The notes under the pieces were generated by a model. The model saw only the letters and a list, made by a program, of their open reading frames with translations, had not been told where the DNA came from and did no database searches. From an uncultured Planctomycetaceae bacterium (lineage in GTDB: Bacteria; Planctomycetota; Phycisphaerae; SM23-33), in NCBI GenBank assembly GCA_964642165.1, contig CAZXOC010000003.1, forward strand, positions 784-64,783: DNA of 64,000 bases. Reading direction: 5' to 3'. Position numbers and translations under genes: made by a program. Below, in pieces: positions 14,516-41,786 of the stretch. Position 1 is the stretch's first letter. Each line of letters starts with the position of its first letter.

Positions 14516-14522
14516 CGCCTGC

Positions 14523-15605: not shown

Positions 15606-15740
15606 GGCGAGCCGACTCGCTCGCCCTCCCTTCTCTACCCGATCATAGGTCCGGATGCCGCGCGGATGGATGACAAAAGCCCCCGTGATGGTGCGGCGGC
15701 ACGGCGGCTCGCCTCGCGGCAGGCGGGACGTCCGGCCAAC

Positions 15741-16384: not shown

Positions 16385-17551
<1,167 letters not shown>

Positions 17552-17652
17552 GGGCTACCCGTGCATTGGGGTGCAACGTTCCGGTACCGCTCGCCGACGC
17601 CGGACGTTACAATGAGATGGGCCGGCCCGGCGCACCGCGCCACCGGAAGGAC

Positions 17653-19911: not shown

Positions 19912-19939
19912 GGGCTCGATGGAACGTCCCGGCCGCCGT

Positions 19940-29033: not shown

Positions 29034-29116
29034 CAATCGCCAAGCCCGATCGCGCCGCCTTGTGTTTCATGAATGGACCGGCCGGCCGAATGGCTCGCCA
29101 GGGAGGACGACACACG

Positions 29117-30349
29117 ATGAGAACGCTTGGCTTGGCGGCGGGGGCGGCGCTGCTGGCGGCGTGCCCGCTCGCGGCGCCGGCGGAGGAATGGCCCTGTTGG
29201 CGCGGGCCGCGCGGCGACGGCACCAGCCGCGAGACCGGCATCCCCGTCCGCTGGAGCGCGACGGAGAACGTCCGCTGGAAGGTCCCGATTCCCGGCCGGG
29301 GGTACTCCTCGCCGATCGTCTGGGGCGACCGCATTTTCCTGACGACGTGCGAGGAGCGCAAGAAGGAGCGCCTCCTGCTGTGCCTGGCGCGGGCCGACGG
29401 CAAGCTGCTCTGGCAGCGCATGGTGCTGCGCTCGGCGCTGGAGAAGAAGAACCGCCTCAACTCCTACGCGAGCAGCACGCCGGCGACAGACGGCAAGCAC
29501 GTCTGGGTGACGTTCATGGAATGGCCGAGCCAGCGCATCCAGGTGGTCTGCTACGACGTGGCGGGCAAGGAGGTCTGGCGGCGCTCGCCGGGCGAGCTGC
29601 GCTCGATGCACGGCTACTGCAGCTCGCTGCTGCTGCACAGGGACACCGTGATCCTCAACGCCGACCAGGACGCCGTGGCGTACATCGTGGCGTTCGACCA
29701 GGCCACGGGCGCCGAGCGCTGGCGGATCGACCGTCCGAACCGCACGCGGAGCTACTGCCCGCCGGTGATCTACGACCTGGCCGGGAAGAAGCAGCTCGTG
29801 CTGAGCGGCTCGAAGTGCGTCGCCTCCTACGACCCCGACACGGGCAGGCAGCACTGGATCATCGACGGCCCGACCGAGCAGTTCTGCGCGAGCCTCGTCC
29901 ACACGCGGGGCATCCTGTTCCTCACCGGGGGCTGGCCGACGCTGCACCTGCTCGGCATCCGCCCGGACGGGGCGGGCAACGTCACGAACAGCCACGTCCT
30001 CTGGCACGTCCGCAAACACGCGTCCTACGTGCCGTCGCCCATCGCCGAGGGCGAGCACTTCTTCGTCGTCTCCGACAGGGGCAAGGCGAGCTGCCTGGCC
30101 GCCCGGACCGGCACGTACCTCTGGACCGAGCAGCTCGGGCGGCACCACAGCGCCAGCCCCGTCTCGGCGGAGGGGCGGCTGTACTTCCTTGACGACGACG
30201 GCCGGACCCACGTCGTCCGCGCCGCGGCCAAGTTCGAGCTCCTGGCGACCAACCCCCTCGGCGAGAAGTGCTTCGCCAGCCCGGCCATCTCCCGCGGGCG
30301 GGTCTTCCTCCGCGCGAGCAGGCACCTGTACTGCATCGGCAAGCCGTAG
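29117..30349 (+). CDS. PQQ-like beta-propeller repeat protein (BamB/PQQ-repeat family)
   Basis: RBS GGGAGGA. Signal peptide MRTLGLAAGAALLAACPLAAPA. WPCWRGPRGDG..SPIVWGDRIFLTT and repeated W/G blade motifs (LLWQR, EVWRR, ERWRI, QHWII, YLWTE). Confidence 0.7.
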   Translation: MRTLGLAAGAALLAACPLAAPAEEWPCWRGPRGDGTSRETGIPVRWSATENVRWKVPIPGRGYSSPIVWGDRIFLTTCEERKKERLLLCLARADGKLLWQRMVLRSALEKKNRLNSYASSTPATDGKHVWVTFMEWPSQRIQVVCYDVAGKEVWRRSPGELRSMHGYCSSLLLHRDTVILNADQDAVAYIVAFDQATGAERWRIDRPNRTRSYCPPVIYDLAGKKQLVLSGSKCVASYDPDTGRQHWIIDGPTEQFCASLVHTRGILFLTGGWPTLHLLGIRPDGAGNVTNSHVLWHVRKHASYVPSPIAEGEHFFVVSDRGKASCLAARTGTYLWTEQLGRHHSASPVSAEGRLYFLDDDGRTHVVRAAAKFELLATNPLGEKCFASPAISRGRVFLRASRHLYCIGKP

Positions 30350-30412: not shown

Positions 30413-32755
30413 TCAGACGGTCAGGCGCACGTAGAGGCTCGGCAGCACGCGCGGAAGCTGCCGGATGTCCGGCAGGATGACGAACCGCCGCCGGGGAAAC
30501 ATGATCTCCATGTCGGGAAGGCTGTTCTCCTCCGTCGAGATGCCGAACGTGTGGATCGTCTTGCGGTCGTTTTCCTCGCAGGCCATGCGGACGTCGTACT
30601 GGGCGTGGCGAGTGTTGGGGTCGTAGCGGTCGTCCATCGGCCGCCCGTCGGTGATGAGGATGATCAGGCGCTGCCTGGCGTCGACGCGGCCGAGGCGGAA
30701 GCCCGCGTGCCGCAGGGCGGGCCCGATCCGCGTGCAGTTCAGCGGGTACGCCGACAGGACGCGCCCGATGCTGTCTCGTCCCCACGCTTCGTCGAAGTCT
30801 TTGTAGACGAAAAACGCGCAGTTCTCCGGCCCGTTGGAGTGGAACCCGCAGATGCTGAAGCGGTCCCCCAGGCTCGCCAGCCCCTGCCCGAGGATCAGCG
30901 CGGCGTGCTTCTCGATCTCGATGATGCGTTTGCGGTCGGACAGCTCTTCCGCCGTCGAGCCGCTGGCGTCGAGGACGATCTCCACGGCCAGGTCGCGGCG
31001 GTTGATGCGGGGCTTCTCGTAGAAGCGGACCTTCGGGGAGGGCTCCTTGCGGCGCTGCACGAGGTAGTCGACCAGCAGGTCGGCGTTGATCTGCTCGCCT
31101 TCCTGGAGGTACTTCTCGCGGCGGGTCAGGTCCGGCTTGAGGCGCTCGAAGACGCGCCCGACGCGGCGGGCCTCGCTGGTGATGTCCGGCGGGATGGGCT
31201 GCTCGCCGGCCTGCTCGGGCACCTTCTCGTAGACGAAGCAGTAGTCGCGGTAGTAGTCGCCCTCCTCGTGGCTCCATTCGTCGTAGACGTAGCAGACCCG
31301 GGCCGCCTCGGCGCGATCCGCCTCCTCCTGCTCGCCCGAGCCCTCGCGGGCCTCGTCGGCTGCCTGGGCGGCCGCGTCCTCCCCGGCGCCCTCATCCCGG
31401 CGCCTGTGGTGCTGTTCCGCCGCACGCTTGAGATCAGCCACCAGGCTCCCACGCGGGGCCGCCGAAACGCCCCCGGGAAAGAGGAAGTCCGGCAGGAACG
31501 CGAACGGCCGAAGGAGATCGCCCGCCAGGCCCGGACAGTCCCGGGCGACCTGCTCGGCCAACTCGCCGTCGAGCTGCCGGACCGTGTCAAAGAAGTTCAC
31601 CGACCCGTCCGCCAGGCGCAGCAGCGCGGCGACGCCCGGGGCCTGTGCCGCATCGGACCTCGCCGCGTCATGGAACAGGCGCTCCGCCGCGGACGCCGGC
31701 GGGCGCCACCGGAACTCCTCCCGCAGGGCGAAGTCGATCAGCCGCCGGGAGCCCGGCCAGCGGGCCCGCACGCGACGCAGCACGCGCACGTACTCGGCGA
31801 TCTGGAAGAGGTTCAGGCGAAGCGAATCGCTCCCGACGACCTCCCGGCACGTGCGGTGGCCTTGCAGGCCGTGCACGCGGCAGAAGCTGTCCTCGGCGAT
31901 CATCCCCGCCGCGACCACGCTCGCCAGCAGGTACCACTTCCGGTTCACCGCCGCGTCGTCGAAGTAGCGGATGCGGCTGGGCACGTACAGCCACTTGTAG
32001 AGACATACCAGCGAGCAGCCGCGCTCGATCAGGTCGTCGGAGTCCAGCCGCCCCAGCTCGCAGACCTCGATCTCGCGCCCGGTGAGGGCCTTGAGCAGGG
32101 CCGACATGATCGGATGAACGTCGTCGAGGCGGCACTCCCGCGTGATGCGCAGGATGTACGTTTCGGACGTCTTGAGCCTGCCCTCCAGGAAGGCCAGGGC
32201 CTTGGGCTTGCTCCTGCGGAAGATCTCGAGGCCCGCGTCGATGTAGAGGCCGATCTCCTCGGGGCGCAGGCGGTCGATCAGGCGGCGGTAGCCCTTGATG
32301 AAGGCCACGGCGAGGTCATCGTCGGTTTCCCGCAGGCGGCGCGCGTGGGTGACGAGGTCGCGGACCTGGTCGGGGCGCTCTCCCAGCCCGCCCGTCCCCA
32401 GCGTGCGGAACAGCGTGATGCCGTAGTGCAGGCGGGCGTTGGCGAGTTCCTGGCCGAGGTCGACGATGTCGACGAAGACGCCGGGCAGGTCCAGCAGCCA
32501 GCGCATGCGCGGGTTGAGCGCCGCGAGGAATTCCTTCAGGACGTGGTCGAAGCAGCGCTGGTCGGCCTGCTTCATCAGCTCGAAGAAGCGCCGCGTGACC
32601 TCCTGTCGCTCCGGGCCGATGAGCCCCTGTCGCAGGAGCCCGTCGATCGCCCGGGCGAAGATCTCGCGGTAGCCCCAGCAGACGCTCCGCAGCGTGAAGC
32701 CGTGGTACCCGTCGCCGCCTCGCGCGGGCGGCGTGCTAGGGCTCGGCGGGTCCAT
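30413..32755 (-). CDS. CbbO/NorD-like protein with a C-terminal von Willebrand A (VWA) domain
   Basis: 780 aa. Long helical N-terminal region, acidic linker, C-terminal VWA with MIDAS DASGS (VLDASGSTAE) and ..LIILITDGRP.. Start overlaps the upstream AAA+ gene by 20 nt. Confidence 0.7.
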   Translation of the reverse strand: MDPPSPSTPPARGGDGYHGFTLRSVCWGYREIFARAIDGLLRQGLIGPERQEVTRRFFELMKQADQRCFDHVLKEFLAALNPRMRWLLDLPGVFVDIVDLGQELANARLHYGITLFRTLGTGGLGERPDQVRDLVTHARRLRETDDDLAVAFIKGYRRLIDRLRPEEIGLYIDAGLEIFRRSKPKALAFLEGRLKTSETYILRITRECRLDDVHPIMSALLKALTGREIEVCELGRLDSDDLIERGCSLVCLYKWLYVPSRIRYFDDAAVNRKWYLLASVVAAGMIAEDSFCRVHGLQGHRTCREVVGSDSLRLNLFQIAEYVRVLRRVRARWPGSRRLIDFALREEFRWRPPASAAERLFHDAARSDAAQAPGVAALLRLADGSVNFFDTVRQLDGELAEQVARDCPGLAGDLLRPFAFLPDFLFPGGVSAAPRGSLVADLKRAAEQHHRRRDEGAGEDAAAQAADEAREGSGEQEEADRAEAARVCYVYDEWSHEEGDYYRDYCFVYEKVPEQAGEQPIPPDITSEARRVGRVFERLKPDLTRREKYLQEGEQINADLLVDYLVQRRKEPSPKVRFYEKPRINRRDLAVEIVLDASGSTAEELSDRKRIIEIEKHAALILGQGLASLGDRFSICGFHSNGPENCAFFVYKDFDEAWGRDSIGRVLSAYPLNCTRIGPALRHAGFRLGRVDARQRLIILITDGRPMDDRYDPNTRHAQYDVRMACEENDRKTIHTFGISTEENSLPDMEIMFPRRRFVILPDIRQLPRVLPSLYVRLTV

Positions 32756-33614
32756 CGCCCGCGCCCTCCATCAGCTCGCCGAAGTAGAGCTTGACGATGT
32801 GGTTGATGGACTCGGCGACCTCGGCCTCTTCGGTGAGCGTCTGGGTGATGGCGGCGTTGCAGGCCTTCAGCGGGTCCAGGCCCGCCTTCATCAGCCGGCC
32901 GACGTAGACCAGCAGCCGCGTGCTGACCCCCTCGTCGAGGCCGAAGCCCTTCAGCTCCCGCGTCTTGGCGCCCATCTCGGCGAGTCGGCGGCCCTCGGCC
33001 TCCGACAACCCGGTCTCCGTTTGTATGATTCGCGACTCGACGTCGATCGCCGGGTGCGTGAAGGTCAGGCTGGCGAAGCGCTGCTTGGTGGAGTGCTTCA
33101 GGTCCTTGACGATGCTCTGGTAGCCCGGGTTGTAGCTGAGCACCATCATGAAGTCCGGCGCGGCGCGGATCACCTCGCCCGTCTTGTCGACGTAGAGGAT
33201 CCGCCGGTCGTCCGTCAGCGAGTGGATGATGACGGTGGTGTCCTTGCGGGCCTCCACGATCTCGTCGAGGTAGCAGATGCCCCCGTAGCGCACGGCGAGC
33301 GTCAGCGGGCCGTCCTGCCAGACCGTCTGCTCGTCCTTGAACAGGTACCGCCCGACGAGGTCCCCGGCCGTCAGGTCCTCGTGGCACGAGACCGTCACCA
33401 GCGGCAGATCCAGCACGTGGGCCATGTACTCGATGAACCGCGTCTTGCCGCAGCCGGTCGGGCCCTTGATGATCAAGGGGATGTCGCTGTCGAAGGCCGT
33501 CCGGAAGACCTCTTCCTCGTCGTTCTGGGGGATGTAGTTGGGCCGGGCCCGCACGCGGAACTGGTCGATCGTCTTCCGTGCGTCGCTGGTGGGTTGTGTC
33601 TTACGGTTCGTCAC
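32736..33614 (-). CDS. CbbQ/NorQ/MoxR-type AAA+ ATPase (AAA_5)
   Basis: Walker A GPTGCGKT, Walker B ICYLDEI, sensor motifs. About 292 aa if the GTG at 33614 is the start (no in-frame ATG; it lies 9 nt after the radical-SAM stop). The rest of the 580-aa track ORF is a spurious extension. Confidence 0.65.
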   Translation of the reverse strand: MTNRKTQPTSDARKTIDQFRVRARPNYIPQNDEEEVFRTAFDSDIPLIIKGPTGCGKTRFIEYMAHVLDLPLVTVSCHEDLTAGDLVGRYLFKDEQTVWQDGPLTLAVRYGGICYLDEIVEARKDTTVIIHSLTDDRRILYVDKTGEVIRAAPDFMMVLSYNPGYQSIVKDLKHSTKQRFASLTFTHPAIDVESRIIQTETGLSEAEGRRLAEMGAKTRELKGFGLDEGVSTRLLVYVGRLMKAGLDPLKACNAAITQTLTEEAEVAESINHIVKLYFGELMEGAGDGPAEP

Positions 33615-33622
33615 GATGCCAC

Positions 33623-34555
33623 CTATTCCGAGGCCGCTTCGGCCGCGCTGTAGTACACCTCGGCGCCCATCTGCGTCCCCACGAGCAGGCCCAGGCCGTC
33701 GAGCTTCTCCAGGTACTTCAGCACCTCGACCCGCCTCATGCTCAGGCCCTCGGCGACGTCGCGCACGCGGCAGGGGCGCCTGCGGAGCAGCGCGAGGACC
33801 TGCTGCTCGTCGACGTCGTCCGCCTCGGCGGCCTCGTCCTCGGTGGCCGAGTCCCAGATCACCTCCGCCGTCGGGTGGAACAGCTCGGCCAGCCGGCGGA
33901 GCTCCTCCCGAGGCACGGGGCGCGCGAAGTCCTCCGCGGGCGGGCGGGTCACCGTGTTCAACTGGACGCGGTCCGGGCGGATGGCCTCGACGCACTCGGC
34001 GATCTGCTCCACCTCCGACTCGATGCCCGTGTGCCCGCCCAGCAGCATCACCTCCAACCAGTACTCGCCGGGAAACTCGGCGCGGAAAGCTGCCAGGCCG
34101 CCGACGACCCGCTCGAACGACAGCCCCTCGGCCGGCCGATTGACGGCCTGGAACATGCCCTCGCCGCCGGCGTCGAGCGACGGGACGATCAGGTCGGCGC
34201 CCATCAACTCCGCACGGACGTCCTCGCGCCACAGCAGCGAGCCGTTGGTCAGGACCGCCACGGGCGTTTCGCCCATTGCCTGGATGCCCTCGATCAGCTC
34301 GCCGGTCCGGGAATACAGCGTCGGCTCGCCCGAGCCGCTCAGCGTGACGTAGTTGGCCCCGCACCCGATGCGGGCCTCCACGTCGGCCAGCACGTCCGCC
34401 AGCGGCACCCACTCCTTTCGCTCGGTCGTCCGGCACGTCGTGCGCCCGAGCTGGCAGTAGATGCAGTCGTACGTGCACGTCTTGAACGGCACCAGGTCGA
34501 CGCCCAGCGACCGGCCGAGCCGCCGCGAGGGTACGGGGCCAAAAACGTGACTCAT
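33623..34555 (-). CDS. Radical SAM protein (COG0731-like, NifB/MoaA-related Fe-S enzyme)
   Basis: N-terminal GPVPSRRLGRSLGVDLVPFKTCTYDCIYCQ (CxxxCxxC cluster motif), SGSGEPT glycine-rich SAM motif, 310 aa. Confidence 0.75.
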   Translation of the reverse strand: MSHVFGPVPSRRLGRSLGVDLVPFKTCTYDCIYCQLGRTTCRTTERKEWVPLADVLADVEARIGCGANYVTLSGSGEPTLYSRTGELIEGIQAMGETPVAVLTNGSLLWREDVRAELMGADLIVPSLDAGGEGMFQAVNRPAEGLSFERVVGGLAAFRAEFPGEYWLEVMLLGGHTGIESEVEQIAECVEAIRPDRVQLNTVTRPPAEDFARPVPREELRRLAELFHPTAEVIWDSATEDEAAEADDVDEQQVLALLRRRPCRVRDVAEGLSMRRVEVLKYLEKLDGLGLLVGTQMGAEVYYSAAEAASE

Positions 34556-34594
34556 CGCGAGATCCCGTCGAGTTCGGTGGCGCGGACGCCCGCG

Positions 34595-34834
34595 TCAGCC
34601 GTCCAGGTCACACTGGCCGCAGGGCGTGTCGCGCCCGCAGCAGGTCGTATCGCGCCCGCAGCGGATTGCCGAGGAACCGCCGGCGCCTTTCACGATCACG
34701 GCACCGCCCGTGCCGATCAGGCGCCGGACGCGCCCGCCGCACTCGCTGCACGTCCGGACCGGCTTGTCGGTCATGTTCTGGAACTGCTCGAAGCGCCGGC
34801 CGCACTTCGTGCACTCGTAGTCATATGTCGGCAT
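34595..34834 (-). CDS. FmdB-family zinc-ribbon protein
   Basis: MPTYDYECTKCGRRFE...PVRTCSECGG (CxxC...CxxC zinc ribbon), 79 aa with a Gly/Cys-rich tail. Confidence 0.6.
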   Translation of the reverse strand: MPTYDYECTKCGRRFEQFQNMTDKPVRTCSECGGRVRRLIGTGGAVIVKGAGGSSAIRCGRDTTCCGRDTPCGQCDLDG

Positions 34835-34890
34835 TCTTCCTGCTCTCCTGCGCTCGCGCGTCGGCTGCCGGTCGCCCGCCGGGCGCGAGG

Positions 34891-36144
34891 TCAGTGGTCA
34901 CAGAGGTTCCCGCCCGTCGTCAGCGTGCCGCCGAGGTAGGCCGCGACCAGTTCCGCCGGTTCCTGCGCCGAGGCGCCCACGACGACCGCGATCCCGCTGG
35001 CGGCGAAGAGCTGCTGGGCCCGGCTGCCCATCCCGCCGGCGATGATCACCTCGGCGCCCATTTCGTGAAGCCAGCGGGGCAGCGCGCCGGGCTCGTGCCC
35101 CGGCGGCGTGTGCTTCGTCGTCTCAAGGACTTGCCCGGTCGACGCGTCCACCTCGATGATGGCAAATTCCTCGCAGTGCCCGAAGTGGGCACTCAGCCGC
35201 CCCGCCGCCAAGGGAATCGCGATCTTCATGCGATGGTTCTCCTGCTGGGGTTTCTCCAGGTCGGTTGATCCCCCCTCCTTCGGCTCGTCCGGTGCGATCT
35301 TGCGCACGATCTCAGCGAAGGCGGCCGCGGCCGCCGAACCGTCAGATGCCTCGATGAACGGCGCGCCTGCATCGCCCGCGGCGACGATGGCCGGATCGAT
35401 GGGGATGCGCCCGAGGAACGGCACGCCCGCCTCGCGGGCCAGCGCCTCGCCCCCGCCGGACCGGAACAGGTCCACGCGGTGGCCGCACTGCGGGCAGACG
35501 TACCCGCTCATGTTCTCCACGATGCCCGCCACCGGCAGCGACAGCGCCCGGCAGAACGACACGCAGCGGCGCACGTCGGAGATCGCCAGGTCCTGCGGCG
35601 TGGTGACGACGACGGCGCCGGCGGGCTGACCGACGAGCTGGGCGACCGTGAGCGGCTCGTCGCCCGTGCCCGGCGGGGAGTCGATGACGAGGTAGTCCAG
35701 CCGCCCCCACGTCACGTCGGTGAGGAACTGGCGGATCGCGCCGAACTTGCGAGGCCCGCGCCAGATGATCGCCTCGTCGCCGTTGGCCAACAGGAACCCG
35801 ATGGACATGACGGCGAGATGGTCATCGACCTGGACGGGCACCATCTCCCCCTCCTTGAGGCCGACCGGCCGGCCCGTCAGCCCCAGCAACTGCGGGATGC
35901 TCGGCCCGTGCACGTCGACGTCGAGGAGCCCGACCTTCCTGCCCGCGCGGGCCAGTGCCACGGCCAGATTCGCCGCCACCGTGCTCTTGCCCACGCCCCC
36001 CTTGCCCGACAGCACCAGCAGCTTCTGCCCGATGCGTTCCATGCGGCTGCGCAGCATCAACTGCTGCCTCTCGCGTTCGGCCGGGTCCGGGCCCTGCGCC
36101 GACGGGCGCGAAGGCGGGGGCTGTTTCGGAGACGAGTCCGTCAT
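34891..36144 (-). CDS. Mrp/ApbC/NBP35-family Fe-S cluster carrier ATPase fused to a C-terminal NifX/NafY-type (Nitro_FeMo-Co, PF02579-like) domain
   Basis: RBS AGGAG 11 nt upstream of the ATG at 36144 (MTDSSPKQ..). Walker A VLSGKGGVGKST, ferredoxin-like CPQCGHRVDLF Cys pair. C-terminal MKIAIPLAAGRLSAHFGHCEEFAIIEVD...IIAGGMGSRAQQLF matches dinitrogenase FeMo-cofactor-binding-domain proteins. Confidence 0.75.
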   Translation of the reverse strand: MTDSSPKQPPPSRPSAQGPDPAERERQQLMLRSRMERIGQKLLVLSGKGGVGKSTVAANLAVALARAGRKVGLLDVDVHGPSIPQLLGLTGRPVGLKEGEMVPVQVDDHLAVMSIGFLLANGDEAIIWRGPRKFGAIRQFLTDVTWGRLDYLVIDSPPGTGDEPLTVAQLVGQPAGAVVVTTPQDLAISDVRRCVSFCRALSLPVAGIVENMSGYVCPQCGHRVDLFRSGGGEALAREAGVPFLGRIPIDPAIVAAGDAGAPFIEASDGSAAAAAFAEIVRKIAPDEPKEGGSTDLEKPQQENHRMKIAIPLAAGRLSAHFGHCEEFAIIEVDASTGQVLETTKHTPPGHEPGALPRWLHEMGAEVIIAGGMGSRAQQLFAASGIAVVVGASAQEPAELVAAYLGGTLTTGGNLCDH

Positions 36145-36175
36145 GTGATTTACAACTCCTGGGGGCCCGAGGTCC

Positions 36176-37087
36176 TCAAGTTTCATCGAACAGCCGGGCC
36201 GAGACGGCTTGCCAGAGCCCGCGCACATCGGACGCGGCCCCATCGCGGGCGTACTCCACGATGGACTGCCTGTGGACCTGGGCTTCCGTCACGCCCGGAT
36301 CATACCGCACGCGTCCCAAGGCCGACACGCCTCGGTCCGCCGCCGCCGCCTCGACCTGGGCGGCGACGTCGTCGTTCAGGTCCCACTTGTTCACGCACAC
36401 CGCCGCCGGGATGCCGAAGTGCTTCGCCAGGTCCGCGACGCGAGAGAAGTCGTGCAGGCCGCTCAGCGTCGGCTCCGTCACGATCAACACGAAGTCCGCC
36501 GCCGAGATCGAGGCGATCACCGGGCAGCCGATCCCCGGCGAGCCGTCGATCAGGACGAGCTTCTTGTGGTTCCGGTCGGCGATCTTCTTGGCCTCCGTCC
36601 GCACGAGACTGACCAGCTTGCCGGAGTTCTCCTCGGCCACGCCGAGCTTCGCGTGCACCATCGGCCCGTGCCGCGTGTCCGAGACGAACCACTCGCCGTT
36701 CACGACCGGCGCGAACTCGACGGCGTCGTACGTGCAGAAGTACGCGCAGACACCGCAGCCCTCGCAGGCGATCGGGTCGACGCGGAACGTCCGGTCGACG
36801 CGGCCGTTGCCGGGGCCGTCATAGAAGACGGCGTCGAACCGGCACACCTCCTCGCACTTCCCGCAGGCCGTGCAGTGACCCGGCATGATCCGCGCACGCG
36901 AGCCGCCCGAGAACTTCTCCCGCCGGCGGACCGTCGGGGCAAGCACGAGGTGCAGGTCGGCCGCGTCCACGTCGCAGTCCGCCAGCACCACCTCTTCCGC
37001 CAGCGCCGCGAAGGACGCGACCAGAGACGTCTTGCCCGTGCCCCCCTTGCCGCTGATGACGACCAGTTCCTTCATCCGATCAGACAC
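36176..37087 (-). CDS. MinD/CooC/ParA-like P-loop ATPase with an inserted 2x[4Fe-4S] ferredoxin domain
   Basis: Deviant Walker A ISGKGGTGKTS. Cys motifs CTACGKCEEVC and CEGCGVCAYFC. Second nucleotide-binding half IDGSPGIGCP. Confidence 0.7.
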   Translation of the reverse strand: MSDRMKELVVISGKGGTGKTSLVASFAALAEEVVLADCDVDAADLHLVLAPTVRRREKFSGGSRARIMPGHCTACGKCEEVCRFDAVFYDGPGNGRVDRTFRVDPIACEGCGVCAYFCTYDAVEFAPVVNGEWFVSDTRHGPMVHAKLGVAEENSGKLVSLVRTEAKKIADRNHKKLVLIDGSPGIGCPVIASISAADFVLIVTEPTLSGLHDFSRVADLAKHFGIPAAVCVNKWDLNDDVAAQVEAAAADRGVSALGRVRYDPGVTEAQVHRQSIVEYARDGAASDVRGLWQAVSARLFDET

Positions 37088-37105
37088 CTCCGGGGTGCCG
37101 GCCGA

Positions 37106-37963
37106 TCATGGCTCAGCCGTGCCCGTCAGGTCGCGCAGTTGCGACAGCAGTTTCTCGAACAGCGCCGCGTAGCCGTCGACGGCGCGGCAGGCCAGCTCGC
37201 CGCGCGAGTACGCCTCGGCGATCCGCCGGTCGTCGGGAATCTCCGCCAGCACGTCGATGCGATGCGTCCGGCAGAATGCCGTCGTCTCGGCGTCCCCGAC
37301 GTCCGCGCGGTTGATCACCACGCCGAACGGCATCTTCAACGCCCGCGTCATCTCGACCGCCAGCTTCAGGTCGTTCAGGCCGAACGGCGTCGGCTCCGTC
37401 ACGAGGAGCACGTAATCGCAGCCGCGCACGCTCTCGATCACCGGGCAGGACGTCCCCGGCGGGACGTCGTAGATCATGACGTCCCCGTCGGAGGCGGCCG
37501 CCTTCGTCGCCCGGATCAGCGGCGGGCTCATTACTTCGCCCACGTTCAGCAGCCCCTGAACGAACTGCACGTCGCCGGCGCGCCCGGTCTCGACGCGCCC
37601 GGTCACGCGCTGCGTTTCCGTGATGGCGTTCACGGGGCAGACCAGCCAACAGCCGCCGCACGAATGGCACAGCTCGGGGAACACGAGCACCTTCTCGCCC
37701 ACGCAGACGATCGCGCTGTACTGACAGATCTCGCCACACTTGCCGCAGAGGATGCACGTGTCCGCCGCCACCTCGGGCACGCTGCCGCCCACGGGCTGAC
37801 TGGTCGCGATCTCCGGCTTGAGGAACAGGTGGCCGTTGGGTTCCTCGACGTCGCAGTCGAGATAGCCGACGCTCCGGCCCGCCCCGGCGGCCACGAACGC
37901 GAGGTTGGTGGCCACCGTGGTCTTGCCGGTGCCGCCCTTTCCGCTGGCGACGGCAATTCTCAT
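37106..37963 (-). CDS. MinD/CooC/ParA-like P-loop ATPase with inserted 4Fe-4S ferredoxin domain (paralog)
   Basis: VASGKGGTGKTT; CILCGKCGEIC and CHSCGGCWLVC; YDVPPGTSCP. Adjacent to and 19 nt from its paralog. Confidence 0.7.
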   Translation of the reverse strand: MRIAVASGKGGTGKTTVATNLAFVAAGAGRSVGYLDCDVEEPNGHLFLKPEIATSQPVGGSVPEVAADTCILCGKCGEICQYSAIVCVGEKVLVFPELCHSCGGCWLVCPVNAITETQRVTGRVETGRAGDVQFVQGLLNVGEVMSPPLIRATKAAASDGDVMIYDVPPGTSCPVIESVRGCDYVLLVTEPTPFGLNDLKLAVEMTRALKMPFGVVINRADVGDAETTAFCRTHRIDVLAEIPDDRRIAEAYSRGELACRAVDGYAALFEKLLSQLRDLTGTAEP

Positions 37964-37993
37964 AGCTGACTCATCTGTTCGGGGGCTGTGGCG

Positions 37994-38581
37994 TCAGCGG
38001 TTTTGGCCGCCACCGCCCATGCCGCCGCCACCGCCCATGCCGCCGCCGCGGCCCATGCCGCCGCCACGACCCATGCCGCCGCCACGACCCATGCCGCCGC
38101 CGCGGCCCATGCCGCCGCCGCGTCCCATACCGCCGCCGCCCATGCCGCCGCCCATGCCCGGCGTGCCGCCGGGCGGCATGGGCTGCTGGGCGGGCGGGGC
38201 CTGGGCGGCCCCGGGCTGGGCGATGCCGAAGTGGCTCGGCACGTTCGGCTGATCGGTGGCCTGAAGCTGGTCGCTCTTGAACTGCTCCACCACCGCCAAG
38301 ACCGGCCCCATGCAGCCCACGATGACGCCAATCCCCGCCGCGCTCAACGTCTGGTAGGCATTGGGCCCGCAGTTGCCGGTCAGCAGCACCTGTACGCCCT
38401 TTTCGGCCATCAACTGCGCCGACTGGATCCCCGCGCCGCTGCCGGCAGTGATGCTCGGGTTCTCGATCGCCTCGTGCTCCATCGTGTCTGTCTCCACGAT
38501 CAGGAAGCACGGGCACCGCCCGAACCGGGGGTCAACGTCGGCGTCCATCGACGGAGCCGTAGCTGTCACCGCGATCTTCAT
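37994..38581 (-). CDS. NifB/NifX-type (Nitro_FeMo-Co) domain protein with a C-terminal Gly/Met-rich repeat tail
   Basis: MKIAVTATAPSMDADVDPRFGRCPCFLIVETD...GVQVLLTGNCGPNAYQTL (PF02579-like), followed by (GGGMGR)n: ...MGGGMGGGGMGRGGGMGRGGGMGRGGGMGRGGGMGRGGGMGGGGGMGGGG, encoded by an 18-nt DNA repeat at about 38030-38150. Confidence 0.65.
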   Translation of the reverse strand: MKIAVTATAPSMDADVDPRFGRCPCFLIVETDTMEHEAIENPSITAGSGAGIQSAQLMAEKGVQVLLTGNCGPNAYQTLSAAGIGVIVGCMGPVLAVVEQFKSDQLQATDQPNVPSHFGIAQPGAAQAPPAQQPMPPGGTPGMGGGMGGGGMGRGGGMGRGGGMGRGGGMGRGGGMGRGGGMGGGGGMGGGGQNR

Positions 38582-38666
38582 TTGCTGTCTCCTTGCCCGG
38601 CCGCGCGGCGCAGCCTGGGCGTTCTGTTGTGCCGTCCGTGCGTCTCGGGAAACCCCGCCGCCGGCG

Positions 38667-39053
38667 TCACGGTTCCTTCGCCTGGCCCTGAAGCTCCTCG
38701 ATACGCTTCTTGATCCCGTCGAGCGCGTCCTCGAAGTACTCCACCTGGCCCTGGAGCGCCGCGAGCTCTTGCTCCTTGCTCATGGCCGCCCCTGCCGGTG
38801 CCGCCGGCCAGGCGCCCGCCGGCATGGGCGCGGCGCCTCCGTAGGCCGGCCAGCCCGCCGCGGCACGCTGCCAGCCAGGCATCCCGGTTGCGTAGAACCA
38901 GTTCCGCCGGCCTCGCCCGCCGCCGCCCCAGCCGAAGCCTCGCCCCCCCACGGGGTTCATGTACCCGGGCATGGGATAGCCCGCGCAGTACCCGGCCGCA
39001 CGTCCTGTCATGGGACCCATTCCCCCCGGGCCCGTTCCATCACCACCTGGCAT
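38667..39053 (-). CDS. DUF5320-like protein (Gly/Pro/Met-rich N-terminus plus C-terminal coiled coil)
   Basis: MPGGDGTGPGGMGPMTGRAAGYCAGYPMPGY... N-terminus typical of DUF5320. C-terminal SKEQELAALQGQVEYFEDALDGIKKRIEELQ coiled coil. Confidence 0.55.
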   Translation of the reverse strand: MPGGDGTGPGGMGPMTGRAAGYCAGYPMPGYMNPVGGRGFGWGGGGRGRRNWFYATGMPGWQRAAAGWPAYGGAAPMPAGAWPAAPAGAAMSKEQELAALQGQVEYFEDALDGIKKRIEELQGQAKEP

Positions 39054-39067
39054 CTTCTTGCTCCTTG

Positions 39068-39952
39068 TCAGTTTGCTTGCGGGGACCCGTTCACCGGTGC
39101 CCGGGCCGATCGCCGCGCGACCAGGCTATTCACCTCGCAGCCCAAGTCTTGGGCGATCACCGGACACTTCGCCTTAAGAATGAAGAAGATCTCCCTCGGC
39201 ACGTCGCTGAGGGTTTCGTAGTTGCCTTGGCCCTTGGCGACGATCAGGTCGGCCCGGTCGAACCGGCGGCGGAAGGCCTCGCTGCAATCGCCCAGGATCG
39301 TCCCCGGCGCGTCGCTGCCGTTGTCGATCACCTCGACCAGGCCGGTCAGTCCGGCGGCCTCGGCGTCGGCTCGCGTCGCGTCGTTGATGACCGGTGCGCC
39401 CTTGACGGCGACGGCGACCTTTTCGGTCGGAAGCCGCTCCAGCAGCAGCCGGTCGAAGACCAGCTCTCCCGCGTTGTCGCCCAGGTAGAGGACCTCCTCC
39501 GCCCGCGCCACGGCGCTGCCGAAGCCGTCCAGGTCCGCCTCCAGCGGGGCGGCCAGCGCGTGCGCCACGCCGTCCCGGACCTTGGCTTCGTCCATCTCGC
39601 CATCGACGCCGAAGTCGATCACGTTGCCCGCGATGGCCAGGCGGACGGCCGTCTCCAACGGGGCCGGCGAGGCGTCCACCTTCGCCTTGAGTCCGGGATA
39701 CATCGCCAGCGCAACGCGCGTGAAGTGGTCCTTGATGTCGCGATACGGGTCGTTTACGCCGGTCAGTCGGCGGATCATGCGCTGGATCCGCTGGCCCATA
39801 GCCGGGGGAGACTGCCGGAGGTCCATCTCCGCCGCGGCGCGGAGCACCTCCCGGAGCACCTGCTCGTGGACGGCCTCGTCGTCGGTCACCAGTCGGGCCG
39901 CGTCCAGGGCCTGACGGACGAAACACGGGATGCAGTCGAAAAACGTCCTCAT
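39068..39952 (-). CDS. DUF89 (ARMT1-like, metal-dependent damage-control phosphatase fold) protein
   Basis: MRTFFDCIPCFVRQ N-terminus, conserved DNAGE motif (LYLGDNAGELVFD) and KGQGNYE motif (LIVAKGQGNYETL). Confidence 0.65.
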   Translation of the reverse strand: MRTFFDCIPCFVRQALDAARLVTDDEAVHEQVLREVLRAAAEMDLRQSPPAMGQRIQRMIRRLTGVNDPYRDIKDHFTRVALAMYPGLKAKVDASPAPLETAVRLAIAGNVIDFGVDGEMDEAKVRDGVAHALAAPLEADLDGFGSAVARAEEVLYLGDNAGELVFDRLLLERLPTEKVAVAVKGAPVINDATRADAEAAGLTGLVEVIDNGSDAPGTILGDCSEAFRRRFDRADLIVAKGQGNYETLSDVPREIFFILKAKCPVIAQDLGCEVNSLVARRSARAPVNGSPQAN

Positions 39953-39961
39953 GCCTGTTCC

Positions 39962-40324
39962 TTACAGCCAGTGGCCTTCCACGTCGGGCTTGTCGACGAG
40001 CGACAGCCGGCCGGCCTTCAGGGCCTCCACCGCGTCTCGGACCGAGCCCTGCGCACCGACGTAGACCTTGACGCCGCCGGCCTGAAGCGTACGGAACGCC
40101 TTCGGGCCGACGTGGCCCGTCACGATCGCCTCCGCGCCCAGGTCGATGACGTTCTGCGCCGCCTGGATGCCGGCGCCCTGGAGGGCGTTGAGGTTCTGCG
40201 AGTTGTCGTGCGCCGTGGCCTGGCCCGTGTCGGTGTCCACGAGCACGAACGCCTTGGCCCGCCCGAATCGCGGGTCGACGGGGCTTGCCAAGTCGGTCCC
40301 TTGAGCCGTGATTGCCGCTTTCAT
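39962..40324 (-). CDS. NifB/NifX-type (Nitro_FeMo-Co) single-domain protein
   Basis: MKAAITAQGTDLASPVDPRFGRAKAFVLVDTDTGQ...AIVTGHVGPKAFRTLQAGGVKVY. The start at MKAAI is in frame 15 codons into the track ORF, whose upstream ATG is at 40369. Confidence 0.65.
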   Translation of the reverse strand: MKAAITAQGTDLASPVDPRFGRAKAFVLVDTDTGQATAHDNSQNLNALQGAGIQAAQNVIDLGAEAIVTGHVGPKAFRTLQAGGVKVYVGAQGSVRDAVEALKAGRLSLVDKPDVEGHWL

Positions 40325-40394
40325 CTTCCATATCTCCAGCAATAGTTTGCTGTTGCGCCGCTGCCTCACGCCGCCCGGGGCGGCGCCTTGCCGG

Positions 40395-40775
40395 CTAGAG
40401 GCCGCCGCGCCAGCCGCGACCGCGACGCCCGCCGCCGCGCTGCCGGCGGCCGAAGCCCCGACCGAAGCCCATGCCGCCCGAAGCCGCGCCGACCACCGGC
40501 CCGCCCTGGATGGCCAGGGCCTGCCCGTCCACGAGGGCGCGGGCGACCTTCGATCGCCCCGACGCCAGGATCCGCGTCACGGTCGGGCGGGAGACGCCCA
40601 TCCTCGCCGCCACCGCCTCCTGGTCCAGGCCCTCGCCGTCGACCAGGCGGATCGCCTCGAACTCGTCCAGCCCCAGGGTCGTCCACTGAAGCTGGCGTGC
40701 GGGCACGCCAGCGGGCTTGTAGACCGTCACGCCGGGCCGGCCGGCGATTATGCGTTGTTTCGGGGGGCGGGACAT
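40395..40775 (-). CDS. DUF134 (UPF0251) family predicted DNA-binding regulator
   Basis: MSRPPKQRIIAGRPGVTVYKPAGVP...LGLDEFEAIRLVDGEGLDQEAVAARMGVSRPTVTRILASGRSKVARAL (sigma-70 region-4-like HTH). Gly/Arg-rich tail. First gene behind the promoter/operator. Confidence 0.7.
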   Translation of the reverse strand: MSRPPKQRIIAGRPGVTVYKPAGVPARQLQWTTLGLDEFEAIRLVDGEGLDQEAVAARMGVSRPTVTRILASGRSKVARALVDGQALAIQGGPVVGAASGGMGFGRGFGRRQRGGGRRGRGWRGGL

Positions 40776-40782
40776 CGCGGCC

Positions 40783-40830
40783 TCATTATGAACCTACGTT
40801 CATAATAGCATCGGCTGGAAATCAGGTCAA
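40783..40830 (-). promoter_or_regulatory. Sigma-70-like promoter (TTGACC-N17-TATTAT) with an overlapping perfect inverted repeat ATTATGAAC-N4-GTTCATAAT (candidate operator) and a GAGG RBS
   Basis: Minus strand reads TTGACCtgatttccagccgatgcTATTATGAACgtagGTTCATAATGAGGccgcgATG. The -35 lies at plus 40825-40830 and the -10 at 40802-40807. The 9-bp arms are at 40785-40793 and 40798-40806. The ATG of the DUF134 gene is at 40775. Confidence 0.5.
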
Positions 40831-41348
40831 GCGCTGCGGAAAAAAGACTTGGTTCAAGTCAGGGCAACGTTCTCGCATCTGGCCTCCGGGCTTGGCGAAA
40901 CGCTATATCTTTATTATAATGTTGCTTACGACTAACGTGGCTGGTGCAGGCTCCCTCGAAGGCGTTCCCCACTCGGAAACAGGGCCGACAAGCGTTGATC
41001 CAATAAACCGGAACTCCGGAATCCGTGCGACGCAAAGCTCTTTCAGAAAGAACCTTACGTCTGCCCGCTACGGGCTGGACCGTTACGTGGACGGCGCGTT
41101 CGTCACTCTGAGGCGCCCGACAGGTCCAGGATCTCCTACTGCTTTATATGAGTTTGCGGGGGGCGAAATGTTTTGTATAGGGGTCGGGGAAAGGACATAA
41201 TGAAATAGAGATATAAAGTTCTGGATAGCAAAGGAGTATGGCGTTTTCCCTATTATTTTAATGGGCAAATGAACCTACACAAAACGACACATTGGTTGAT
41301 CTCGTCGCCATCGAATCGCCCATTGGCGAATGAAGATTTGCGGCCCGG

Positions 41349-41786
41349 TCAGTCCCTCGGCGGCAGGGCGGCGACGTGGAGCCAGAAGTGATCGATGGCC
41401 TGGATCACCCGCATGAACTCCTCCAGGTCCACGGGCTTGGCGACGTAGCAGTTGCAGTTGAGGTCGTAGGCCTGGAGGATGTCCTGCTCGGCCTCGGACG
41501 TGGTCAGGACGATAACGGGAATCCTCCGCAGCTTCCTGTCGGCCTTGATCTCGACGAGGACCTCGCGCCCGTCCTTCCTGGGGAGGTTCAGGTCCAGCAG
41601 GACCAGGTCGGGTGTCGGGGCATGCCGGTGCGGGCCCTCTCGCCGCAGGAACTGCAGGGCCTCCTCCCCGTTGGCGACCACGTGGAGGTGGTTGACCAGC
41701 CCTCCCTCGCGGAAGGACTCCCGCACCAGGCGAACGTCGCCGGGGTTGTCCTCCACCAACAGGATCTCAACGGACTTGCTGCTCAT
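41349..41786 (-). CDS. Receiver-only response regulator (CheY-like)
   Basis: ILLVEDNPGDVRLVRE (phospho-acceptor pocket), [14 protein letters not shown] (D phosphorylation site), VIVLTTSEAEQD, AYDLNCNCYVAKP. The start at MSSKSVE is in frame inside the 174-aa track ORF. Confidence 0.75.
   Translation of the reverse strand: MSSKSVEILLVEDNPGDVRLVRESFREGGLVNHLHVVANGEEALQFLRREGPHRHAPTPDLVLLDLNLPRKDGREVLVEIKADRKLRRIPVIVLTTSEAEQDILQAYDLNCNCYVAKPVDLEEFMRVIQAIDHFWLHVAALPPRD

What the first reader, a model, noticed from the sequence alone, without database searches (positions are those of the whole stretch)
30413..33614. CbbQ/NorQ-type AAA+ ATPase (GTG start, 9 nt after the radical-SAM stop) translationally coupled to a NorD/CbbO-like VWA protein, with no known client nearby
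The AAA+ gene has no in-frame ATG. The only plausible initiator is GTG at 33614, right behind the TAG of the radical SAM gene. Its 3' end overlaps the 780-aa VWA gene by 20 nt (MIDAS DASGS). Known Q/D pairs act on Rubisco, nitric-oxide reductase or nitrite reductase, none of which is present here. The client is therefore probably a product of, or a partner of, this cluster.
Basis: partly seen in the sequence, partly recalled or inferred. Interest (0 to 1): 0.55.

Follow-up and report, generated by a model that had tools for sequence, protein, structure and literature searches.

The report
Orphan CbbQ/NorQ-type chaperone pair
These two overlapping genes encode an ATP-driven motor and its adaptor, related to the pairs that repair Rubisco or load iron into nitric-oxide reductase; they form a separate, unstudied branch found in uncultured anaerobes, often beside genes that handle iron-sulfur and other metal clusters, and the protein they act on is unknown.

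Summary
Window 32736-33614 (-) encodes a 292-aa AAA_5 + CbbQ_C ATPase ("Q"). GTG 33614 is its only workable start. It overlaps by 20 nt a 780-aa protein ("D", 30413-32755) that carries a NorD-type VWA domain, pore finger and complete MIDAS. No Rubisco, NOR or nitrite reductase lies in the 64 kb.

The pair is neither CbbQO nor NorQD. Q is about 50-52% identical to both, and its family splits from 8 references in 60/60 bootstraps. Only the last ~300 residues of D align well with NorD or CbbO. D's N-terminal domain defines a small family of 100 representative clusters, found only in MAGs of anaerobes.

Q-D is always paired. It is the last unit of a Desulfovibrio "orange protein" (ORP)-type cluster (MrpORP, two MinD-ferredoxins, NifX-like, DUF89, radical SAM). 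The same adjacency occurs in 20/52 related loci: 20/35 in Planctomycetota-Verrucomicrobiota-Chlamydiota (PVC) lineages and 0/17 elsewhere. Only 1/80 MrpORP-anchored loci carries Q-D.

Best reading: a third client-specific branch of Q/D remodelling chaperones. Its client is probably tied to the ORP-type metal-cluster system but is not identified. I rate it a new variant of a known kind, of moderate interest.

The parts
32736..33614 (-). Q: 292-aa CbbQ/NorQ-type MoxR AAA+ ATPase with a GTG start. Motifs: Walker A GPTGCGKT (51-58), Walker B CYLDE (114-118), helix-2 insert GRYLFKDEQT (88-97), and C55/C77, which correspond to the redox pair C46/C68 of Paracoccus NorQ.
   Evidence: Pfam AAA_5 and CbbQ_C. 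PDB 5c3c 1e-95 and 9qhd 3.5e-87. Motif conservation. Start-codon analysis. NorQ motif and cysteine positions from PMC13036017.
30413..32755 (-). D: 780-aa adaptor. The layout is an all-alpha N-terminal domain (about 20-460), a low-confidence acidic linker (466-483), a beta-hairpin (489-511), finger helices (523-570), and a VWA domain (589-779) with MIDAS D596/S598/S600/T675/D703 and a conserved C-terminal tail LPxLYxRLT.
   Evidence: Homologues. Alignments. Profile match to NorD 9qhd_G at 8e-51 over residues 476-776. AlphaFold model with pLDDT 89. Foldseek match to NorD VWA, E 1.4e-17, TM 0.78.
31346..32755 (-). The N-terminal 470 residues of D, which define the family and presumably bind Q and the client. 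A core (about residues 90-400) is remotely related to the CbbO N-domain; residues 1-90 and 400-470 are family-specific.
   Evidence: No BLAST match to NorD or CbbO. hhalign P 4e-5 to 7e-5. phmmer found only 100 representative clusters among 1.84 billion. Bridging proteins link it to CbbO. The N-domain model (pLDDT 90.9) has no PDB fold match.
32736..32755 (-). The 20-nt overlap between the end of Q and the start of D (ATGGACCCGCCGAGCCCTAG). A GGAGGG lies 8 nt upstream of the D start codon.
   Evidence: Overlap is seen in 38 of 59 related loci.
33615..33625 (-). Junction between the radical SAM gene and Q: the radical-SAM TAG stop (33625-33623), an AGGTGG Shine-Dalgarno-like element (33624-33619), and an 8-nt spacer before GTG 33614.
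33623..34555 (-). Radical SAM protein of 310 aa, with CX3CX2C at residues 27-34 and a C-terminal ArsR-like winged helix (252-306). It belongs to the ORP-type cluster rather than to Q-D.
   Evidence: Pfam Radical_SAM 9.7e-16. NF033788 match at residues 252-306. Orthologues follow MrpORP in loci that lack Q-D.
34595..34834 (-). Small FmdB-family zinc-ribbon protein (79 aa) with a Cys-rich tail, located between the MrpORP gene and the radical SAM gene.
   Evidence: Read from sequence. TIGR02605, 65.8 bits. Conserved only in L001.
34891..36243 (-). MrpORP: an Mrp/NBP35 P-loop domain fused to a NifX-like domain. The true start is probably ATG 36186.
   Evidence: NF041136 MrpORP 529.7 bits against a cut-off of 450. 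Pfam ParA and Nitro_FeMo-Co. Translation.
36176..37963 (-). Two MinD/CbiA-type ATPases with inserted 2x[4Fe-4S] ferredoxin motifs (36176-37087 and 37106-37963), resembling Orp3 and Orp4.
   Evidence: Pfam CbiA and Fer4 families. Description of Orp3/Orp4 in PMC6345978.
37994..38581 (-). NifX-like (Nitro_FeMo-Co) protein of 195 aa, similar to ORP/Orp8.
   Evidence: Pfam PF02579, 1.6e-24.
38667..39952 (-). DUF5320 protein (38667-39053) and ARMT1/DUF89 phosphatase-like protein (39068-39952).
   Evidence: DUF89 recurs next to Q-D in 16 of the related loci.
40395..40830 (-). DUF134 helix-turn-helix protein (40395-40775), with a sigma-70-like promoter match upstream (40830-40802; 10 of 12 positions plus an extended TG). 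This is a possible start of the transcription unit.
   Evidence: The promoter is only a consensus match.

Best explanation
Q and D form a MoxR-type remodelling chaperone built like NorQD and CbbQO.

Inferred from those systems: six Q subunits form a ring. D plugs its VWA finger into the pore, anchors its C-terminal tail on the post-sensor-1 loops, and holds a client through its MIDAS site and its N-terminal domain. ATP hydrolysis then twists or pulls the client so that a buried metal site opens.

Shown here: every part needed for that mechanism is present and conserved. The pair is a separate third branch, not CbbQO or NorQD, and its adaptor has its own N-terminal domain. In this genome it is the last, translationally coupled unit of an ORP-type metal-cluster gene cluster.

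Inferred from adjacency only: the client is a protein of that ORP-type system, or the apo-protein that system serves, and Q-D helps insert or release a metal or metal-sulfur cluster under anoxic conditions.

My estimates: about 0.85 that this is a working Q/D remodeller of a distinct branch, and about 0.4 that the client is ORP-linked.
For: Machine parts:
- AAA_5 and CbbQ_C domains.
- About 51-52% identity (BLASTP) to a Rubisco-associated CbbQ (the carboxysome-cluster gene of N. hamburgensis) and to NorQ, and E 1e-95/3.5e-87 to the solved CbbQ and NorQ structures.
- Walker A and B, helix-2 insert GRxLFxxxxT, post-sensor-1 region and the C55/C77 pair are at least 90% conserved in the family. 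The equivalent NorQ residues are described in PMC13036017.
- The C-terminal 300 residues of D match NorD in sequence (8e-51) and in fold, finger included. MIDAS is invariant and the C-terminal tail is conserved.

Pairing: Q lies directly upstream of D in essentially all 78 loci, usually overlapping it.

Distinct branch:
- NJ split of the family from the references in 60/60 bootstraps. Median identity is 71.5% within the family, 52% to CbbQ-type references and 50% to NorQ.
- The N-domain of D finds only 100 representative clusters among 1.84 billion proteins. The full-length ones are mostly 740-830 aa.

Context in the window: genes run from DUF89 to D with gaps of at most 85 nt or with overlaps. 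MrpORP scores above NCBI's equivalog cut-off.

Context elsewhere:
- 20 of 52 loci (20 of 35 PVC loci) have ORP-type genes within 10 kb. These loci span D identities down to about 45% and show varied gene orders.
- OrpR-like sigma-54 activators with the C-x8-C-x3-C motif occur in 12 loci.
- Other Fe-S assembly neighbours appear: SufC-like and SufBD-like genes in L064 and NifU_N in L087.
Against: - Adjacency is the only evidence for the client.
- About half of the loci, and all 17 outside PVC, have Q-D alone among unrelated genes.
- Only 1 of 80 MrpORP-anchored loci has Q-D. The Desulfovibrio ORP complex as described has five proteins and no Q/D (PMC6345978).
- The PVC loci may partly reflect one inherited arrangement rather than independent associations.
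- The function of the ORP system itself is unknown, so linking Q-D to it says little about chemistry.
- The reference set for the Q tree is small: 8 sequences, mostly Alphaproteobacteria, with no NirQ or GvpN.
- No expression data exist.
Confidence: 0.5

Rival explanations
1. Q-D serves a client encoded elsewhere in the genome, for example a common metalloenzyme of fermentative anaerobes. Its position next to ORP-type genes in PVC bacteria reflects shared regulation under low redox potential, not a shared pathway.
For: Q-D stands alone with variable neighbours in Anaerolineae, Spirochaetota, KSB3, Clostridia and many Planctomycetota. Only 1 of 80 MrpORP loci has Q-D. In many PVC loci the cluster includes an OrpR-like redox-sensing activator, which could simply co-regulate neighbouring genes.
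Against: A rate of 20 in 52 loci within 10 kb of a small set of genes is far above what random placement in multi-megabase genomes would give. The adjacency persists across D identities of 45-72% and across rearranged gene orders. In the window and in many loci Q-D is in the same orientation as the preceding ORP-type gene and tightly spaced behind it.
Confidence: 0.3
2. Radical SAM, Q and D form a three-gene functional unit. The client is the radical SAM enzyme or its substrate, as the 8-nt junction suggests.
For: The radical-SAM stop and the Q start are 8 nt apart in the window. The same order occurs in L001, L002, L005, L072 and L104.
Against: The radical SAM gene adjoins Q-D in only 7 of the 78 related loci, all Planctomycetota or Victivallales. 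Its orthologues (54-65% identity) follow MrpORP in loci without Q-D, for example L094, L097 and L112. In 9 loci a 4HBT thioesterase occupies the position directly upstream of Q, and in others MrpORP does.
Confidence: 0.08
3. It is an ordinary NorQD or CbbQO pair whose nitric-oxide reductase or Rubisco is encoded elsewhere in the genome.
For: Databases label some homologues 'nitric oxide reductase activation protein NorD'. Q is about 51-52% identical to both CbbQ and NorQ.
Against: Q is equidistant from CbbQ and NorQ and separates from them in 60/60 bootstraps. The N-terminal 490 residues of D have no BLAST similarity to NorD or CbbO. None of the 78 loci was seen next to norCB or Rubisco genes, whereas the reference pairs are. 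The family occurs only in MAGs of anaerobic lineages. The database names are automatic.
Confidence: 0.04
4. It is a MoxR-VWA conflict or anti-phage module.
For: MoxR-VWA modules occur in some defence-type systems. Q gives a weak hit to IetA (25.7 bits).
Against: The IetA hit covers only the P-loop. D has no PADLOC hit. No mobile-element or defence-island context was seen. The family is conserved at 50-70% identity across phyla with stable synteny.
Confidence: 0.02

Closest known systems
CbbQ-CbbO Rubisco activase (Acidithiobacillus, Halothiobacillus, Nitrobacter carboxysome clusters)
   Same: Q has the same domain pair (AAA_5 + CbbQ_C). It is 51% identical to N. hamburgensis CbbQ and matches 5c3c at 1e-95. 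D has the CbbO architecture and length (780 against 786 aa), with a C-terminal VWA/MIDAS. Profile alignment is colinear over residues 152-779 against CbbO 138-785. The N-domain core is remotely homologous through intermediate proteins.
   Different: Q lies outside the CbbQ group. D is only 26% identical to CbbO, and only over the last 300 residues, by BLAST. No Rubisco or carboxysome genes are nearby in any locus examined. The hosts are anaerobic heterotroph-type lineages.
NorQ-NorD, the chaperone that inserts Fe_B into cytochrome c nitric-oxide reductase (Paracoccus, Jhaorihella; PDB 9qh4-9qhg)
   Same: This is the best structural template. The VWA domain, finger and C-terminal tail of D match NorD (8e-51; Foldseek E 1.4e-17, TM 0.78). 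Q keeps the helix-2 insert contact residues (R89, Y90, T97) and the C55/C77 pair, equivalent to NorQ C46/C68.
   Different: D is 150 residues longer and its N-domain is only marginally alignable (81 columns, P 3.7e-5). The helix-2 insert has F where NorQ has L or I. There are no norCB genes. Q separates from NorQ in the tree.
ORP (orange protein) complex gene cluster of Desulfovibrio vulgaris (Orp3, 4, 5, 8, 9 with OrpR)
   Same: The genes upstream of Q-D match it: an MrpORP equivalog, two MinD-like proteins with ferredoxin motifs, and a NifX-like protein. Related loci also carry an OrpR-like PAS-sigma-54 activator with the same cysteine spacing.
   Different: The published complex has no AAA+/VWA pair. 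The window has no OrpR and no sigma-54 promoter signal above chance. The PVC clusters add DUF89, DUF5320, a 4HBT thioesterase, an MBL-fold protein and a radical SAM enzyme.
Other AAA+/VWA metal-insertion motors: CobS-CobT and BchI-BchD chelatases, CoxD-CoxE of aerobic CO dehydrogenase, RavA-ViaA
   Same: They share the general logic of an AAA+ ring plus a VWA/MIDAS partner acting on a metal site. There are weak sequence hits to CobS and CobT. My statement that CoxD/E mature a Mo-S-Cu site rests on memory, not on a test here.
   Different: These are different AAA+ subfamilies (E about 1e-5 only) with different partners and clients.

Membership tests
CbbQ/NorQ-type (CGN) MoxR AAA+ ATPases | An AAA_5 ATPase core followed by the CbbQ/NirQ/NorQ C-terminal domain | tested here: met
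   PF07728 1.5e-31 and PF08406 6.3e-25, both above the gathering scores.
CbbQ/NorQ-type (CGN) MoxR AAA+ ATPases | Intact Walker A, Walker B and helix-2 insert motif GRxL(L/I)xxxxT | tested here: met
   GPTGCGKT, CYLDE and GRYLFKDEQT. The family consensus has F at the L/I position. Most of the motif positions are at least 90% conserved within the family.
CbbQ/NorQ-type (CGN) MoxR AAA+ ATPases | A VWA/MIDAS partner encoded directly downstream | tested here: met
   D overlaps Q by 20 nt. Q-D pairing is seen in essentially all 78 loci.
CbbQO Rubisco activase | Q groups with Rubisco-associated CbbQ sequences | tested here: not met
   Family-versus-reference split in 60/60 NJ bootstraps. Median identity to CbbQ is 52% against 68.5% within CbbQ. 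The reference set is small.
CbbQO Rubisco activase | Encoded in a Rubisco or carboxysome gene cluster | tested here: not met
   No Rubisco in the 64-kb window and none among recurrent neighbours in the 78 loci. The rest of the genome could not be checked.
CbbQO Rubisco activase | A CbbO-type adaptor with a homologous N-terminal region (residues 1-444 bind CbbQ) | tested here: inconclusive
   No BLAST similarity in the N-terminal 490 residues. hhalign is colinear over 152-400 against CbbO 138-378 at P 6.6e-5, probability 64%. Bridging proteins match both.
NorQD Fe_B-insertion chaperone | A NorD-type VWA domain with pore finger, MIDAS DxSxS-T-D and a hydrophobic C-terminal tail | tested here: met
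   Profile against 9qhd_G at 8e-51. Foldseek TM 0.78. MIDAS invariant. Tail LPxLYxRLT conserved.
NorQD Fe_B-insertion chaperone | Q groups with NorQ, and the pair is encoded with norCB | tested here: not met
   NorQ forms its own group in 60/60 bootstraps without the window family. No norC or norB in the window or in related loci, unlike references L085, L091 and L092.
ORP (orange protein) complex cluster | MrpORP, two MinD-like ferredoxin-motif ATPases and NifX-like small proteins clustered together | tested here: met
   NF041136 at 529.7 bits against a cut-off of 450. CbiA and Fer4 in two genes, Nitro_FeMo-Co in one.
ORP (orange protein) complex cluster | Control by sigma-54 and the OrpR activator | tested here: not met
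   No OrpR-like gene in the window, which instead has DUF134 and a two-component pair upstream. The -24/-12 pattern is not above chance. OrpR-like genes are present in 12 related loci.
ORP (orange protein) complex cluster | Q and D physically belong to, or act on, the ORP complex | not testable with these tools
   Only adjacency statistics are available. The published complex lists five proteins without Q/D.

The most novel reading that the evidence does not exclude
This Q-D branch is the dedicated ATP-driven insertion or release chaperone of the ORP-type system. It would load a complex metal-sulfur cluster (Fe-S or Mo/W-Cu-S), assembled on MrpORP and NifX-like carriers, into a target protein. 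That would extend the NorQD 'twist-to-insert' mechanism from a single iron ion to a preformed cluster, and would give the first functional handle on the enigmatic ORP complex of anaerobes.
Probability: 0.2. Interest if true: 0.7.

Novelty: new variant of a known kind. Interest (0 to 1): 0.45.

Why it matters
Q/D pairs are the best-understood examples of AAA+/VWA machines that open finished enzymes to repair an active site or load it with metal. Only two client classes, Rubisco and nitric-oxide reductase, are established for them.

This family would add a third branch. It is discrete and well conserved, it has its own adaptor domain, and it is restricted to uncultured anaerobes. It is tied by gene order to a metal-cluster-handling system whose function is still unknown.

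That combination offers a concrete way to find a new client: pull down D. It also offers a way to probe what ORP-type clusters do.

It also corrects automatic annotation, since many members are labelled 'NorD, nitric oxide reductase activation protein' without any NOR context.

Tried and rejected
- Sigma-54 promoter. I searched for TGGCAC-N5-TTGCW with up to 2 mismatches. There were 21 matches against 18.5 expected, none placed upstream of the cluster. No evidence for OrpR-type control in this window.
- Riboswitch or other RNA (for example Moco) upstream of the operon. Rfam found nothing at gathering scores in the whole window, and nothing at E <= 1 in 33400-41500.
- Defence-system reading. 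PADLOC gave only a P-loop-level IetA hit for Q and nothing for D.
- First bootstrap run with Biopython timed out. I repeated it with my own distance code.
- NifB-like role for the radical SAM. It has only the CX3CX2C motif and few other cysteines, and only weak family hits: MoaA-type 35 bits, viperin-type 31 bits.
- Zinc-ribbon gene as a conserved linker. It is conserved only in L001.
- Window 4HBT thioesterase at 58129-58581 as a displaced orthologue of the thioesterase that precedes Q elsewhere. Similarity is only 34% over 44 residues. Rejected.
- ABC ATPase fused to DUF1893 directly after D in Spirochaetaceae. The ATPase part is generic with no specific family, and the adjacency is limited to 4 loci.

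Full report
**Observation**

The window is 71% G+C. On the minus strand, 32736-33614 encodes a 292-aa protein with Pfam AAA_5 (1.5e-31) and CbbQ_C (6.3e-25). It matches the solved CbbQ structure 5c3c at 1e-95 and NorQ 9qhd at 3.5e-87.

The start is GTG 33614, 8 nt after the TAG of the upstream radical SAM gene. An AGGTGG lies 5-10 nt upstream of it. The nearest alternative in-frame starts are GTG 33995, 127 codons upstream inside the radical SAM gene, and GTG at codon 21. The alignment to CbbQ begins at residue 13-14, and most orthologues start at the position equivalent to residue 6-10. GTG 33614 is therefore the only workable start.

There are six, but all lie after the Walker A motif.

The Q stop codon overlaps by 20 nt the ATG (32755) of a 780-aa ORF, D, which has its own GGAGGG 8 nt upstream. 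With heuristic start calls, a Q/D overlap is seen in 38 of 59 related loci, most often 26 nt.

D carries DASGS at residues 596-600. Together with T675 and D703 this forms a full MIDAS, invariant in 116 homologues.

Pfam scans of about 45 ORFs across the window found no Rubisco, nitric-oxide reductase or nitrite reductase.

**What the two proteins are**

By BLASTP, Q is 51% identical to a carboxysome-cluster CbbQ (Nitrobacter hamburgensis plasmid, L084), 52% to a norCB-linked NorQ (Sinorhizobium meliloti pSymA, L085) and 51% to an orphan proteobacterial Q (L086).

I built a neighbour-joining analysis of 63 family members and 8 references. The family separates from all references in 60 of 60 bootstraps. 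Median identity is 71.5% within the family, 52% to CbbQ-type references and 50% to NorQ; CbbQ against NorQ is 51%. The reference set is small, so this shows a distinct branch relative to the characterised systems, not a complete phylogeny.

All working parts of Q are conserved in the family: Walker A and B, the helix-2 insert GRxLFxxxxT, the post-sensor-1 segment, and the cysteine pair C55/C77. That pair corresponds to the C46/C68 disulfide shown to switch off Paracoccus NorQ (PMC13036017).

D aligns with NorD only over residues 476-776 (profile E 8e-51). By BLASTP that region is 33% identical to NorD and 26% to CbbO. Residues 1-489 have no BLAST similarity to either.

An AlphaFold model built on 116 homologues (pLDDT 89) shows five elements:
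- an all-alpha N-terminal domain (about 20-460);
- a low-confidence acidic linker;
- a beta-hairpin;
- two finger helices;
- a VWA domain.

The C-terminal part superposes on the NorD VWA-plus-finger structures (Foldseek E 1.4e-17, TM 0.78). The N-domain modelled alone (pLDDT 90.9) has no PDB fold match.

The N-domain is not wholly unrelated to known adaptors. hhalign gives a colinear match of residues 152-400 to CbbO 138-378 (P 6.6e-5) and of 206-286 to NorD 31-122 (P 3.7e-5). Weak hits from the exhaustive search (P0215, P0217, P0218) match both this N-domain and that of CbbO. Published work states that CbbO residues 1-444 bind the CbbQ ring (PMC5437159). I therefore read the shared core as the Q-binding part, and the family-specific parts as candidate client-binding surfaces. 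That reading is inference.

**Size and spread of the family**

A word-indexed search gave more than 120 full-length homologues of 740-806 aa at 49-72% identity.

An exhaustive phmmer search of the N-domain against 1.84 billion representatives found only 100 clusters at E <= 1e-3, 67 of them at E <= 1e-30. The full-length ones are mostly 740-830 aa, so the domain occurs in essentially one architecture.

The 78 loci found in species-representative genomes are all MAGs. They come from Planctomycetota, Kiritimatiellia, Lentisphaeria, other Verrucomicrobiota, Anaerolineae, Spirochaetota, Sumerlaeota, KSB3 (Moduliflexus/Vecturithrix) and one Clostridiaceae.

**Context in the window**

Upstream of Q-D, on the same strand, the genes run in this order:

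| Gene | Window coordinates |
|---|---|
| DUF134 HTH protein | 40395-40775 |
| ARMT1/DUF89 | 39068-39952 |
| DUF5320 | 38667-39053 |
| NifX-like protein | 37994-38581 |
| MinD/CbiA ATPase with 2x[4Fe-4S] motifs (first) | 37106-37963 |
| MinD/CbiA ATPase with 2x[4Fe-4S] motifs (second) | 36176-37087 |
| MrpORP (NCBIfam equivalog, 529.7 bits against a cut-off of 450) | 34891-36243 |
| FmdB zinc-ribbon gene, previously unnoticed, 79 aa | 34595-34834 |
| Radical SAM gene | 33623-34555 |

From DUF89 to D the gaps are at most 85 nt or the genes overlap. A sigma-70-like promoter match lies upstream of DUF134, and the genes downstream of D are convergent.

The set MrpORP, two MinD-ferredoxin proteins and NifX-like proteins is the signature of the Desulfovibrio vulgaris 'orange protein' (ORP) complex, whose function is unresolved (PMC6345978).

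**Context elsewhere**

Q lies directly upstream of D in essentially every locus.

Of 52 loci with at least 8 kb of flank, 20 have MrpORP, NifX-like or MinD-ferredoxin genes within 10 kb. All 20 are in PVC lineages: 20 of 35 there, 0 of 17 elsewhere. Gene orders vary, and D identities in these loci go down to about 45%.

Recurrent extra neighbours are:
- an OrpR-like PAS-sigma-54 activator (12 loci) with the C-x8-C-x3-C spacing of the Fe-S-binding OrpR PAS domain (PMC8359166);
- a 4HBT thioesterase directly upstream of Q (9 loci);
- an MBL-fold protein (10 loci, including a spirochaete);
- DUF89 (16 of the related loci).

A Q-D-less relative (L097) has the order MrpORP, 4HBT, MBL, radical SAM, FMN reductase, pyridine-nucleotide-disulfide reductase with rhodanese domain. 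The thioesterase, MBL-fold protein and radical SAM are therefore part of an extended ORP-type neighbourhood. Counting them, 25 of 52 Q-D loci touch that neighbourhood.

Isolated further hints of Fe-S assembly are SufC-like and SufBD-like genes after D in L064 and NifU_N beside MrpORP in L087.

Against this, Q-D is a free-standing pair among unrelated genes in many loci. In the reverse test, only 1 of 80 metagenome loci anchored on MrpORP relatives carries Q-D (L104, arranged like the window), and none of about 27 with long flanks does.

Q-D is thus an occasional add-on at the end of ORP-type clusters, not a core component.

**Mechanism**

Shown here: the sequence and predicted fold contain every element that the NorQD cryo-EM work identified as necessary. 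These are the AAA+ ring contacts in the helix-2 insert, the VWA finger, the C-terminal tail that binds the post-sensor-1 loop, and MIDAS.

Inferred: Q6-D1 works as NorQD is proposed to. The ring turns the finger and VWA domain relative to the N-domain, which strains a bound client so that a metal site opens.

Inferred from gene order only: the client belongs to, or is served by, the ORP-type metal-cluster system.

I put about 0.85 on the first inference and about 0.4 on the second. The main rival, at about 0.3, is a client encoded elsewhere with the adjacency reflecting co-regulation under low redox potential.

**Comparison and novelty**

The pair works like NorQD and CbbQO and belongs to the same superfamily. 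It fails the defining tests for either named system: clade membership, client gene context and adaptor N-domain. No paper in the searchable library describes this branch or links a Q/D pair to ORP-type clusters. Orphan Q/O-like pairs in proteobacteria have been noted before. I class it as a new variant of a known kind.

**Limits**

- No expression or interaction data exist.
- The rest of the genome is unknown.
- The reference set for the tree is small.
- The PVC adjacencies are not phylogenetically independent.
- Two fold libraries were unavailable.

Noticed in passing
window 34595-34834 (-): An unannotated small gene between the MrpORP gene and the radical SAM gene. It encodes a 79-aa FmdB-family zinc-ribbon protein (TIGR02605, 65.8 bits) with a Cys-rich C-terminal tail (CGRDTTCCGRDTPCGQC). 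It is conserved only in the closest relative, L001.
   Followed up: partly
window 33623-34555 (-), residues 252-306: The radical SAM protein ends in an ArsR/SmtB-like winged helix (NF033788, 5e-6; PDB NmtR, 1.8e-3). Fusion of an enzyme to a putative DNA-binding or metal-sensing domain is unusual. Orthologues follow MrpORP in many loci.
   Followed up: partly
window 16385-22480 and 46265-48559: A second, unrelated MoxR ATPase (AAA_3, 7e-63) lies at 16385-17554 next to DUF3592. Three large DUF4159 proteins with squalene-cyclase-like repeats are also present (17527-19911, 19883-22480, 46265-48559). This is a separate MoxR system in the same window.
   Followed up: no
window 29062-30192 (+): The ORF convergent with D is clearly coding by third-position G+C (0.95) but matches no Pfam family. 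The same is true of 13112-14596 (-) and 14523-15740 (-).
   Followed up: partly
L097 9983-16377 and other MrpORP-anchored loci (L094, L112): ORP-type clusters in Planctomycetota-like metagenome contigs carry a conserved extension: 4HBT thioesterase, MBL-fold protein, radical SAM, FMN reductase, and a CoA-disulfide-reductase-like protein with a rhodanese domain. This hints at sulfur trafficking in this poorly understood system.
   Followed up: partly
L033 12276-13379, L034 3614-4705, L037 12317-13390: In Spirochaetaceae the gene directly after D is a fusion of a DUF1893/TM1506 domain with an ABC-type ATPase. In the verrucomicrobial locus L064, D is followed by SufC-like and SufBD-like genes.
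   Followed up: partly
window 34891-36243 (-): The longest ORF for MrpORP overlaps the preceding MinD-ferredoxin gene by 68 nt, and the family model aligns only from residue 68. The real start is probably ATG 36186 (MKLEDLG...).
   Followed up: partly
window 58610-63998 (-): Two adjacent large proteins combine a BlaR1-type M56 peptidase domain with HlyD-like or secretin domains. These are unusual architectures that I did not examine further.
   Followed up: no
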